A stretch of DNA of 411 nt from Escherichia coli (GTDB taxonomy: Bacteria; Pseudomonadota; Gammaproteobacteria; Enterobacterales; Enterobacteriaceae), in the NCBI RefSeq assembly GCF_003334335.1, contig NZ_QOWQ01000194.1. One strand, 5' to 3'. Every line of letters starts with the position of its first letter. Position 1 is the stretch's first letter. Shown here piece by piece: positions 1-256 of the stretch. Below the pieces are notes generated by a model. The model worked only from the letters and a program-made list of their open reading frames with translations, ran no database searches and had not been told where the DNA came from. The translations under genes and the position numbers were made by a program.

Positions 1-21
1 ATTGTGAAGTTAGTCACAAAA
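1..21. promoter_or_regulatory. Candidate CRP (cAMP receptor protein) binding site; core TGTGA-N6-TCACA at 3-18
   Basis: Seen in sequence: TGTGA at 3-7, 6-bp spacer agttag at 8-13, TCACA at 14-18. Both half-sites match the established CRP consensus with the canonical 6-bp spacing; the right flank is A-rich rather than T-rich. The left flank of the full 22-bp site runs off the window start. The target promoter and its orientation cannot be determined. Confidence 0.5.
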
Positions 22-42
22 AGAAGAAAGTCAAATAATCAA

Positions 43-72
43 ATTGTGCTTAACTGTTTACATCAGCACAAT
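43..72. repeat. Perfect 8-bp inverted repeat ATTGTGCT / AGCACAAT with 14-bp spacer
   Basis: Seen in sequence: 43-50 attgtgct and 65-72 agcacaat are exact reverse complements; spacer 51-64 is taactgtttacatc. No T-tract follows on either strand, so it is unlikely to be a terminator. It could be a protein-binding operator or an RNA hairpin. Confidence 0.6.
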
Positions 73-78
73 CTGATG
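61..78. repeat. Perfect 6-bp inverted repeat CATCAG / CTGATG with 6-bp spacer, overlapping the right arm of the 43-72 inverted repeat
   Basis: Seen in sequence: 61-66 catcag and 73-78 ctgatg are exact reverse complements; spacer 67-72 is cacaat. It shares bases 65-72 with the previous inverted repeat, so the two structures or sites are mutually exclusive. Confidence 0.55.
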
Positions 79-98
79 ACCATTGAATGACCATTGAA
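77..98. repeat. Perfect tandem direct repeat, 2 x 11 bp (tgaccattgaa tgaccattgaa)
   Basis: Seen in sequence: 77-87 and 88-98 are identical 11-mers in head-to-tail arrangement. An 11-bp period is about one helical turn, which places the two copies on the same DNA face; this is the arrangement used by direct-repeat-binding regulators such as OmpR/PhoB-family response regulators. No specific regulator is identified. Confidence 0.7.
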
Positions 99-133: not shown

Positions 134-256
134 TACGAAAATTCTGCATCCCCTGAATGTTTAATTTACACTCTTTTTATGCAATTATTCTTTCGACTAT
201 AAAAACACCACTATCTCATGTATGACCTTGGGGAGCGTGCCGTCTCCCCGTTTTTT
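134..256 (+). ncRNA. Candidate small RNA, copy A (5' end not determined; 3' end at the intrinsic terminator)
   Basis: Inference: a non-coding region ending in a strong intrinsic terminator, with a duplicated paralogous unit downstream and a 13-nt block (134-146) perfectly conserved between copies. No convincing sigma70 -35/-10 pair was found; TATAAA at 198-203 and TAAATT at 107-112 are weak candidates, so the start coordinate is a placeholder. I could not match the sequence to any sRNA I can recall (Spot42, CyaR, McaS, OmrA/B, RyhB, RprA, MicF and others were compared from memory). Confidence 0.3.
230..256 (+). terminator. Rho-independent (intrinsic) terminator: 6-bp GC-rich stem, 8-nt loop, 6-T tract
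   Basis: Seen in sequence: GGGGAG 230-235 pairs with CTCCCC 244-249 (five G:C pairs and one A:T); loop cgtgccgt 236-243; g250 then tttttt 251-256. The - strand has no T-tract after the hairpin (it is followed by aaggtcat), so the terminator is oriented for + strand transcription. Confidence 0.6.

What the first reader, a model, noticed from the sequence alone, without database searches (positions are those of the whole stretch)
1..21. Near-consensus CRP site at the upstream edge of the sRNA-like cluster
Both half-sites (TGTGA and TCACA) are perfect with the canonical 6-bp spacer, which is uncommon by chance in 411 bp. CRP is known to control several sRNAs (Spot 42, CyaR, McaS), so catabolite control of this locus or of a divergent upstream gene is plausible. 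The site is centred near position 10.5; a class II arrangement would put a start site near 52 and a class I arrangement near 72, but no strong -10 element is evident at either place.
Basis: partly seen in the sequence, partly recalled or inferred. Interest (0 to 1): 0.4.

Follow-up and report, generated by a model that had tools for sequence, protein, structure and literature searches.

The report
CRP site upstream of prophage Eib adhesin
The perfect TGTGA-N6-TCACA dyad is real and looks like a genuine binding site for the sugar-sensing regulator CRP, but it most likely belongs to the control region of the neighbouring prophage adhesin gene (eib, just left of the window) rather than to the small-RNA-like units; this predicts untested glucose control of Eib adhesins.

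Summary
Observation confirmed. TGTGAAGTTAGTCACA lies at window 3-18, centre 10.5. About 0.0004 perfect cores are expected per 411-nt window.

The window is the intergenic region of an E. coli Eib prophage (P-EibA type). It lies between a tail-fibre-assembly gene and an eibA-like YadA-family adhesin gene, both on the minus strand. The eib ATG is 264.5 bp left of the dyad centre.

Against a matrix built from 77 CRP ChIP-seq motif instances, the site scores 15.5 of 20.8 bits, rank 8 of 77.

The key evidence is comparative. In five upstream-region groups whose flanks are essentially unalignable (33-38% identity), a CRP-like dyad sits at the same place, -259.5 to -276.5 from the eib ATG. Its half-sites are 83% conserved and its spacer is free. 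Four hold-out loci gave the same result.

The site stays with eib whether or not the plus-strand sRNA-like units are present. No canonical class I or II promoter lies next to it on either strand. The only positionally conserved -10-like hexamer puts it near -125.

Published Eib levels drop in both glucose-containing media tested.

Verdict: a probable cAMP-CRP site controlling eib from a distance, not shown by experiment. It is a new member of a known kind and of moderate interest.

The parts
3..18 (.). CRP-type dyad TGTGA-AGTTAG-TCACA, centre 10.5 (L001 8003-8018). It lies 264.5 bp upstream of the eib-like ATG, which is on the minus strand at L001 7746, outside the window.
   Evidence: Exact match. 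PWM score 15.5 of 20.8 bits, rank 8 of 77 ChIP-seq motif instances. A dyad at the homologous position in all eib upstream groups except one. Pairwise identity between groups: half-sites 83%, spacer 33%, flanks 35-38%.
19..77 (-). Minus-strand hairpin (arms 77-65 and 50-38) followed on that strand by a U-rich tract (37-19) that runs up to the dyad. It is a putative terminator or insulator that ends late-operon (tail fibre) transcription just before the eib control region.
   Evidence: Inverted repeat of 13 nt, 92% complementary. The minus strand folds at -20 kcal/mol, z = -3.4; the + strand folds at -12.6 kcal/mol, z = -1.4. Invariant in all group A loci. The function is inferred. The tool's terminator pattern did not flag it, because the loop is 14 nt.
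11..39 (+). Weak sigma-70-like match TAGTCA-17-AATAAT that overlaps the right half-site. This is the only candidate + strand promoter next to the dyad and belongs to a rival reading.
   Evidence: 9 of 12 matches; the count is no higher than in shuffles (1 found against a mean of 1.1). Not positionally conserved in the other eib groups.

Best explanation
The dyad is a binding site for cAMP-CRP. It forms the distal edge of the regulatory region of a prophage 'moron', the eib gene, which encodes a YadA-family trimeric autotransporter (immunoglobulin-binding adhesin) and is read on the minus strand, leftwards out of the window.

Order of elements on the minus strand:
- tail-fibre-assembly gene;
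- in this variant, antisense sRNA-like units;
- hairpin with a U-tract;
- CRP dyad;
- a conserved TGTAA(C/G) block exactly 16.5 bp from the dyad centre;
- about 90 bp of unconserved AT-rich DNA;
- a conserved TAnnnT -10-like hexamer with no usable -35;
- a leader of about 150 nt;
- eib.

Proposed mechanism (inferred): when glucose is absent and cAMP is high, CRP binds about 125 bp upstream of a weak, activator-dependent promoter. It raises eib transcription by bending DNA, by cooperating with a second factor at the adjacent conserved block, and/or by relieving H-NS silencing of this 32-38% GC island, as CRP does at pap. Glucose would then lower Eib levels.

Shown: the sequence, its matrix score, its positional conservation and its linkage to eib. 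Inferred: CRP occupancy, the promoter position, the sign of regulation and the mechanism.
For: 1. Context. The window is 99.8% identical to E. coli prophage DNA found in 27 of 5426 complete genomes. It is 93-98% identical to phages including P-EibA of ECOR-9. The flanking genes are a DUF4376 tail-fibre-assembly gene and a YadA-like gene, both on the minus strand. The product has a YadA_anchor domain, E = 1e-15.

2. Site strength. It scores 15.5 bits on a matrix from 77 EAEC 042 CRP ChIP-seq motif instances, rank 8 of 77. It differs at 2 spacer positions from the proP site TGTGAAGTTGATCACA.

3. Specificity. In 167.6 kb of held prophage DNA, 28 16-mers score at least 12.5 bits. Of these, 22 lie at the homologous spot, -259.5 to -276.5 from an eib ATG.

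4. Footprint. Between five upstream groups, half-site identity is 83/100, spacer 20/60 and the 30-nt flanks 35-38%. Mean column information is 1.66 bits for the core, 0.79 for the spacer and 1.10 overall. This is the best dyad-shaped window in the distal region.

5. Replication. Four further eib loci were fetched independently. In each, the top matrix hit of the intergenic region falls at -261.5, -265.5 or -276.5; one has a perfect core (16.4 bits) with a different spacer.

6. Linkage to eib. The TGTAA(C/G) block is at +16.5 in every group. The only positionally conserved TAnnnT is at +111.5 to +116.5 on the eib strand. The + strand units vary or are absent while the dyad stays.

7. Physiology. 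Eib levels, including ECOR-9 EibA/C/D/E, are highest in LB. They fall considerably in M9 with 1% glucose and in yeast-extract medium with 2% glucose, and rise towards stationary phase (PMC5450701).

8. Precedent. CRP acts from -215 at papBA and displaces H-NS there (PMC11316696). ChIP-mapped CRP sites lie 200-490 bp upstream of start codons at several genes, and one controls a putative adhesin gene in EAEC.

9. The eib 5' half and its upstream region are 32-38% GC, against 49-58% in the tail genes.
Against: - There are no binding, transcription-start or crp-mutant data for any eib gene, and no paper found links CRP to eib.
- The site is not at a class I or class II distance from any recognisable promoter.
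- The predicted distance to the conserved -10-like hexamer varies by 5 bp between groups (-123.5 to -128.5), which is half a helical turn. That argues against strict face-of-helix contact with RNA polymerase.
- The -10 assignment rests on conservation alone.
- One group (D) has a weak version, TGAGA-N6-TCATA, at 7.7 bits. One distant YadA-like locus (L028) has none.
- Position 18 of the right half-site, a CRP contact base, varies freely among groups (C, A, T or G).
- The medium effect was attributed by its authors to nutrient limitation, and the comparison changes more than glucose.
- The groups share ancestry, so the conservation statistics are descriptive.
Confidence: 0.55

Rival explanations
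1. The CRP site controls a + strand promoter, divergent from eib, that drives the sRNA-like or antisense transcripts. CRP would repress a promoter that overlaps its right half-site, or activate a start site 35-55 bp downstream.
For: A TAGTCA-17-AATAAT match at window 11-39 overlaps the site. Three + strand intrinsic terminators follow within 550 bp, so + strand transcription of this spacer is likely. In groups D and E, a TACAAT, TAAAAT or TAATAT hexamer lies 39.5-41.5 bp from the dyad centre on this strand. CRP is known to control sRNAs such as Spot 42, CyaR and McaS (established knowledge).
Against: The implied CRP positions (-35.5 in group A, about -51.5 in D/E, none in B) are neither canonical nor conserved. 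The promoter match is no better than in shuffles. The terminated units lie 190-540 bp away and have their own A/T-rich -10-like sequences. The units are deleted, degenerate or absent in loci that keep the dyad unchanged. The element at an invariant offset from the dyad, TGTAA(C/G), is on the eib side.
Confidence: 0.12
2. CRP binds here but nothing depends on it. The site would be one of the many bound but transcriptionally silent CRP sites, and its persistence would reflect shared ancestry or hitch-hiking with the eib cassette.
For: ChIP studies list many CRP sites with no detected regulation; for example, the 0225 target in EAEC 042 has a perfect core but no promoter activity. No canonical promoter geometry was found. 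All eib cassettes are related.
Against: Flanks and spacer have diverged to 33-38% identity while the ten half-site positions stay at 83%. The dyad keeps its position within about 15 bp of the ATG and exactly 16.5 bp from a second conserved block. Neutral decay would have erased a 10-position motif at that divergence. Hold-out loci show new spacer variants with intact or improved cores.
Confidence: 0.15
3. The dyad is the operator of a different protein that recognises TGTGA-N6-TCA-type dyads. Candidates are another CRP/FNR-family or phage- or island-encoded factor, such as one linked to the IbrAB activators of eib. Alternatively it is a composite site together with TGTAA(C/G), and only resembles a CRP site.
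For: Right half-site position 4 varies freely (TCACA, TCAAA, TCATA, TCAGA) although it is a CRP contact. A second block at a fixed offset suggests a multi-protein complex. eib genes are known to need IbrAB for full expression (Sandt et al. 2002, as cited in PMC7649339).
Against: In E. coli the TGTGA-N6-TCACA dyad with a 6-bp spacer is the CRP signature. Most variants score within the upper two-thirds of ChIP-supported CRP sites (12.8-16.4 bits). Natural CRP sites commonly have one degenerate half. No alternative binder with this specificity is known to me.
Confidence: 0.1
4. The dyad is a chance occurrence with no binding and no function.
For: About 5 perfect cores per genome are expected by chance. 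The region is AT-rich.
Against: Only 0.0004 are expected per window. CRP-like dyads recur at the homologous position in independently diverged sequences with different spacers. A perfect core in accessible intergenic DNA is very likely to be bound in vivo.
Confidence: 0.03

Closest known systems
CRP site of the pap (P pilus) regulatory region, which acts from -215.5 of papBA
   Same: A single strong CRP dyad lies far upstream of an adhesin promoter in AT-rich, horizontally acquired DNA. Activation there involves relief of H-NS repression and cooperation with other bound proteins. Glucose lowers expression (PMC11316696).
   Different: pap has divergent papI/papB promoters, Lrp/Dam phase variation and mapped start sites. 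None of these has been shown or seen here. The distance here is about 125 bp from a predicted promoter, not a mapped one. H-NS involvement is only inferred from base composition.
proP CRP site TGTGAAGTTGATCACA (E. coli K-12 and EAEC 042)
   Same: It is nearly the same 16-mer, with 14 of 16 positions identical and differences only in the spacer. It gives a ChIP-seq peak and lies 216.5 bp upstream of the start codon.
   Different: A different gene and promoter architecture. To my knowledge, the proP site overlaps the P1 promoter and represses it. Sequence similarity says nothing about the regulatory output.
CRP control of the putative adhesin gene EC042_0536 and other acquired virulence genes in EAEC 042
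   Same: The global regulator CRP has been recruited to strain-specific, horizontally acquired surface or virulence genes. The site there lies -120.5 from the start codon (PMC12360894).
   Different: At 0536, CRP represses and the site is imperfect (TGTGATGTAAAGCGCA). The gene is unrelated to eib. Those sites were validated by ChIP, EMSA and reporter assays; this one was not.
Class I and class II CRP-dependent promoters (lac, galP1, CC(-41.5))
   Same: The same recognition dyad. The spacer resembles the lac site (TGTGAGTTAGCTCACT, from memory).
   Different: No -10 element lies at the distance required for -41.5, -61.5 or -71.5 on either strand, and none is conserved there.
CRP-regulated sRNA genes (Spot 42, CyaR, McaS)
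   Same: A CRP dyad lies near terminated small transcription units.
   Different: Those sRNAs have CRP sites at canonical promoter distances that are conserved together with the sRNA. Here the dyad is conserved with eib, not with the units. The units match no Rfam family.

Membership tests
CRP (cAMP receptor protein) DNA site, E. coli type | 16-bp dyad TGTGA-N6-TCACA with a 6-bp spacer | tested here: met
   Perfect 10 of 10 core at window 3-18.
CRP (cAMP receptor protein) DNA site, E. coli type | Matrix score within the range of experimentally supported sites | tested here: met
   15.5 of 20.8 bits; rank 8 of 77 ChIP-seq motif instances from EAEC 042; the median instance scores 11.05. The matrix covers only the 16-mer and was built from 77 sites read from a supplement table.
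CRP (cAMP receptor protein) DNA site, E. coli type | Purifying selection on the half-sites but not the spacer in related sequences | tested here: met
   Core 83% against spacer 33% and flanks 35-38% pairwise identity between five groups. Confirmed in 4 of 4 hold-out loci. The sequences are related, so this is descriptive.
CRP (cAMP receptor protein) DNA site, E. coli type | The host encodes CRP and adenylate cyclase | not tested
   All matches are E. coli chromosomes or coliphages. That E. coli carries crp and cya is established knowledge; it was not checked in these genomes.
CRP (cAMP receptor protein) DNA site, E. coli type | cAMP-dependent binding by CRP (EMSA, footprint or ChIP) | not testable with these tools
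   No data found for eib-carrying strains.
CRP regulon member (target gene eib) | Expression changes with crp or cya mutation, cAMP or glucose | tested here: inconclusive
   Only indirect evidence. Eib levels are highest in LB and considerably lower in the two media that contain 1-2% glucose (PMC5450701). The media differ in more than glucose.
Class I / class II CRP-dependent promoter | Site centred at -41.5, or at -61.5, -71.5, -82.5 or -92.5, from a start site with a recognisable -10 | tested here: not met
   No such -10 on either strand. The only conserved TAnnnT places the site at -123.5 to -128.5.
Distal CRP site acting with co-factors or by antirepression (pap-like) | Site more than 100 bp upstream of the promoter, in AT-rich DNA, with a neighbouring conserved element for a partner protein | tested here: inconclusive
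   The predicted distance is about 125 bp. GC is 32-38%. A TGTAA(C/G) block lies at a fixed +16.5. The start site, the partner protein and H-NS binding are all unverified.
CRP-controlled sRNA gene | The dyad lies at promoter distance from the sRNA start and is conserved together with the sRNA | tested here: not met
   The units lie 190 bp or more away, and are variable or absent where the dyad is kept. No Rfam family matches.
Eib / YadA-family trimeric autotransporter (the proposed target) | C-terminal YadA membrane anchor; prophage location downstream of the tail-fibre genes | tested here: met
   PF03895, E = 1e-15. The C-terminal 166 aa are 59% identical to EibA. Same synteny as P-EibA. Immunoglobulin binding by this particular variant was not tested.

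The most novel reading that the evidence does not exclude
The dyad is the hub of a portable, bidirectional control cassette that travels with interchangeable Eib passenger domains. In this reading, cAMP-CRP (with a partner at the adjacent TGTAA(C/G) block) switches on the adhesin gene from about -125 by countering H-NS. It also governs a + strand array of uncharacterised prophage small RNAs that run antisense to the phage late operon. Adhesion and phage or host riboregulation would then both be tied to carbon status.
Probability: 0.1. Interest if true: 0.6.

Novelty: new member of a known kind. Interest (0 to 1): 0.4.

Why it matters
Eib proteins bind immunoglobulin, confer serum resistance and drive the chain-like adhesion of LEE-negative STEC. 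Their regulation is poorly understood: expression is high in static LB and low with shaking or in defined media, and depends on IbrAB.

A conserved, high-scoring CRP site at a fixed position upstream of nearly all eib variants gives a concrete and cheap hypothesis to test: catabolite control. It would reinterpret the published medium effect as glucose repression. It would also add a prophage 'moron' adhesin to the list of acquired virulence genes wired into the CRP regulon.

It is not a new kind of mechanism.

Tried and rejected
1. Rfam search of the window and of the whole 1-kb spacer found no family at E up to 1, including AgvB and AsxR.

2. I first suspected that the + strand units were AgvB-like anti-sRNAs or Pas sRNAs. 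This is not supported. Pas sRNAs sit near the Q and lysis genes or are far more widespread (PasB), and none is described next to eib.

3. A class I or class II promoter next to the dyad on either strand was not found and is not conserved.

4. No second, promoter-proximal CRP site (acs-like tandem arrangement) is conserved.

5. The leader stem-loop annotated in P-EibA folds well in this variant (-13.8 kcal/mol, z = -2.8). RNAalifold found no consensus structure or covariation across groups, so it could not be used to place the start site.

6. Pairing of sRNA-like units U1 and U2 with the eib leader and start codon was no better than in shuffles (p about 0.1 and 0.4).

7. The original eib papers (Sandt & Hill 2000; Sandt et al. 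2002; Lu et al. 2006) are not held. I therefore cannot exclude that they mention the dyad. The GenBank record for P-EibA annotates only stem-loops.

8. The PredCRP supplement table of 23 sites was too garbled by PDF extraction to build a matrix. The EAEC ChIP-seq table was used instead.

Full report
**1. Observation**

Window 3-18 reads TGTGA-AGTTAG-TCACA. Both pentamers are perfect, the spacer is 6 bp and the centre is 10.5. Only 4 of 200 dinucleotide-preserving shuffles gave a match with up to 1 mismatch. From the window's composition, 0.00043 perfect cores are expected per 411 nt and about 5 per 5.3-Mb genome. On its own it is improbable in one window but not decisive in a whole-genome scan.

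**2. Where the window comes from**

- The window is 99.8% identical to chromosomal prophage DNA present in only 27 of 5426 complete E. coli genomes.
- The surrounding 807-bp spacer is 93-98% identical to several temperate coliphages and to prophage P-EibA of ECOR-9.
- In every case the spacer lies between a DUF4376 tail-fibre-assembly gene (orf-191A in P-EibA) and a YadA-like gene (eibA in P-EibA). Both are on the minus strand of the window.
- In locus L001 the window is 8001-8411. The adhesin ATG is at 7746, so the dyad centre is 264.5 bp upstream of it. The tail-fibre-assembly stop codon is 143 bp beyond the right end of the window.
- The adhesin has a YadA_anchor domain (E = 1e-15). It matches EibA only over the C-terminal 166 residues, at 59% identity, although the upstream DNA is at least 93% identical.
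- The adhesin's 5' half and its upstream region are 32-38% GC, against 49-58% in the tail genes. This is the usual look of an acquired 'moron'.

**3. Is it CRP-like by more than the core?**

I built a symmetrised matrix from 77 motif instances under CRP ChIP-seq peaks in EAEC 042 (PMC12360894, Table S2).

- The window site scores 15.5 of a possible 20.8 bits. It ranks 8 of 77; the median instance scores 11.05.
- It differs from the ChIP-supported proP site TGTGAAGTTGATCACA at only two spacer positions.
- The spacer-edge positions (A at 9, G at 14) and the outer flanks are not consensus, so this is a strong site but not an optimal one.

**4. Comparative evidence (the main result)**

A search of IMG/VR with the adhesin protein returned 26 loci. 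The upstream regions fall into groups:

| Group | Loci | Dyad | Position from eib ATG | Matrix score (bits) |
|---|---|---|---|---|
| A (the window's type) | L005, L006, L011, L016, L026, L027, L029 | TGTGACTAACTTCACA | about -264.5 | 15.5 |
| B | L009, L013, L015 | TGTGACGCATATCAAA | about -265.5 | 14.4 |
| C | L012 | TGTGGTGCTTATCACA | -276.5 | 14.1 |
| D | L017-19 | TGAGATTTTTCTCATA | about -260.5 | 7.7 (weak) |
| E | L021-25 | TGTGATGTTGATCAGA, TGTAATTTTGTTCACA and others | -259.5 to -262.5 | 12.8-14.0 |

- Group A shares the whole 800-bp spacer at 88-99% identity, even where the adhesin proteins are only 36-68% identical. One group A locus has a spacer substitution.
- Groups B-E share only about 150 bp next to the ATG, at about 70% identity.
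- Every group nevertheless carries a CRP-like dyad at the same place. Only one distant YadA-like locus (L028) has none.
- In the alignment, the half-sites are conserved islands. Mean column information is 1.66 bits for the core, 0.79 for the spacer and 1.10 overall. This is the best dyad-shaped window in the distal part of the region.
- Pairwise identity between the five groups is 83/100 for the ten half-site positions, 20/60 for the spacer and 35-38% for the 30-nt flanks. The pairs are not independent, so I treat the small Fisher p-value as descriptive.
- Across all 167.6 kb of prophage DNA held, 28 16-mers reach 12.5 bits, and 22 of them are at this position.
- As a hold-out test I fetched four further loci: phage GER2 and three E. 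coli genomes. In all four, the top hit in the spacer fell at -276.5, -276.5, -265.5 and -261.5. The variants were new, and one had a perfect core with a different spacer, TGTGATGGTTATCACA at 16.4 bits.

This pattern of conserved half-sites, a free spacer and a fixed position is what a protein-binding dyad under selection looks like. The match to CRP is maintained, or re-created, in separate lineages.

**5. Which transcription unit does it serve?**

*On the eib side*

- A second conserved block, TGTAA(C/G), lies exactly 16.5 bp from the dyad centre in every group.
- The only positionally conserved TAnnnT hexamer within 135 bp lies 111.5-116.5 bp from the centre. It reads TATAGT, TACAGT, TAATGT, TAGGGT or TACACT, and is followed by a conserved AAG(A/G).AA.TCC.
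- It has no usable -35, so it looks like an activator-dependent promoter. It would start a leader of about 140-150 nt and put the dyad at -123.5 to -128.5.
- No -10 is conserved at class I or class II distances.
- No second, proximal CRP site exists.

- The only promoter-like match overlaps the site, TAGTCA-17-AATAAT at window 11-39. It is no better than in shuffles.
- Other groups have -10-like hexamers at different and non-canonical offsets, or none.
- The + strand units ending at the three intrinsic terminators (L001 8229-8256, 8400-8424, 8529-8553) are 190 bp or more away.
- Unit 1 is degenerate in some group A loci and deleted in P-EibA, L027 and L029, while the dyad and its neighbourhood are invariant.
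- Groups D and E have no such terminators.

*Directly beside the dyad*

- The 13-bp inverted repeat at window 38-77 folds much better as minus-strand RNA (-20 kcal/mol, z = -3.4) than as + strand RNA (-12.6 kcal/mol, z = -1.4). On the minus strand it is followed by a U-rich run ending at the dyad.
- I read it as a terminator or insulator that separates late-operon transcription from the eib control region. The dyad would then be the first element of that region.

**6. Physiology and literature**

- I found no paper that links CRP to eib. The GenBank record for P-EibA annotates only stem-loops. The original eib papers are not held.
- Published immunoblots show that EibG, and also EibA/C/D/E of ECOR-9 and EibF of ECOR-2, are highest in LB and rise into stationary phase. 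They are 'considerably' lower in the two other media used.
- Both of those media contain glucose: M9 with 1% and yeast-extract medium with 2% (PMC5450701). The authors ascribed the effect to nutrient deprivation.
- Catabolite repression through this site is an equally good reading, but the comparison is not controlled.
- There are precedents for a distal CRP site at an adhesin operon. CRP activates papBA from -215 and counteracts H-NS there (PMC11316696). CRP has also been recruited to acquired virulence and adhesin genes in EAEC.

**7. Explanation and its limits**

Most likely (about 0.55), this is a cAMP-CRP site that belongs to the eib regulatory cassette and couples adhesin expression to carbon status from about 125 bp upstream of a weak promoter. 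It would act through DNA bending, a partner at the TGTAA(C/G) block and/or relief of H-NS silencing.

- Shown here: sequence, score, context, positional conservation and linkage to eib rather than to the + strand units.
- Inferred: CRP occupancy, the promoter position, the direction of the effect and the mechanism.

Weak points:

- The CRP to -10 distance varies by half a helical turn between groups.
- Group D has a poor site.
- One contact position of the right half-site is unconstrained.
- The start site is unknown.

Rivals are control of a + strand promoter (0.12), binding without any regulatory output (0.15), a different binding protein (0.10) and chance (0.03).

**8. Novelty and score**

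A CRP site controlling an acquired adhesin gene is a known kind of arrangement. This instance appears to be undescribed and gives a direct, cheap experiment for a poorly understood virulence-associated family. Novelty: new member of a known kind. Interest: 0.4.

Noticed in passing
window 195-256 and 365-411, continuing to L001 8424; third unit at L001 8425-8553: There are three tandem + strand units. Each ends in a GC-rich hairpin plus a T-run (GGGGAGCGTGCCGTCTCCCC-T6, GGGGAGCACGCACTCCCC-AGT6, AGGGGCTGGAGCGCCCCT-CT7). They run antisense to the flanking phage and eib genes, and units 1 and 2 are paralogous (CTATC..ATGTATGAC / CTATC..AGTATCATGC). No Rfam family matches. Unit 1 is degenerate in some relatives and deleted in P-EibA. 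They may be an uncharacterised prophage sRNA family or antisense-transcription stops.
   Followed up: partly
L001 7994-7989, minus strand (7-12 bp left of window position 1): A TGTAA(C/G) block lies exactly 16.5 bp from the dyad centre in all eib upstream groups, with 83% pairwise identity against about 35% for the flanks. In groups D and E it is part of TTACAGTGTAAGCAGATGTGAA. That sequence contains a TTACA/TGTAA inverted repeat and resembles a CpxR box (GTAAA-N5-GTAAA, from memory). It may be a partner-protein site. Alkaline pH, a Cpx inducer, is reported to raise EibG.
   Followed up: partly
L001 7834-7757, minus strand (outside the window, between the dyad and the eib ATG): A 25-codon upstream ORF (MRAARHQIFFIYPMLSCFICIQIIL*) has a strong AGGAG Shine-Dalgarno and ends 10 nt before the eib ATG. 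Group B has a different 25-codon uORF that ends at the same TAG (...CIQIIS*). Group D has none. The 3' part overlaps a strongly conserved TTTGTATACAGATAAT block.
   Followed up: partly
L001 7747-8553 compared with L005-L029: The 800-bp regulatory spacer is 88-99% identical upstream of adhesin genes whose products are only 36-68% identical; EibA aligns only over the C-terminal anchor region. The control region thus behaves as a shared cassette joined to interchangeable passenger domains.
   Followed up: partly
window 76-97: A perfect 11-bp tandem duplication, ATGACCATTGA ATGACCATTGA, is present in this variant and in L001/L002. It is single-copy in P-EibA, PhiR5_1 and the IMG/VR group A loci.
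   Followed up: no
window 134-149 and 311-326 (wider: 305-331): The box TACGAAAATTCTG(C/T)AT is repeated 177 bp apart, upstream of units 1 and 2. In the second copy it sits inside a palindrome, ATGCAATAC-GAAAATTCT-GTATTGCAT. Its function is unknown.
   Followed up: no
L012 2127-2142, and the same position in L031 and L032 (group C eib loci): Group C carries a second CRP-like dyad, AGTGATGCCTGTCACA (13.3 bits), 89-90 bp upstream of the conserved one, at about -366 from the ATG.
   Followed up: no
L001 7912-7903, minus strand (between the dyad and the predicted -10): A perfect 10-bp palindrome, GTGATATCAC, lies in the spacer/-35 region of the predicted eib promoter. It is partly kept in groups C and D and could be an operator for another factor.
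   Followed up: no
L001 1989-2129 and L002 548-688: A Hok/Gef family toxin gene and, in L002, an Ail/Lom outer-membrane gene lie a few kb downstream of eib in the same prophage arm. In L001 a second YadA-like gene (445-1638) has no CRP-like dyad of at least 12.5 bits upstream.
   Followed up: no
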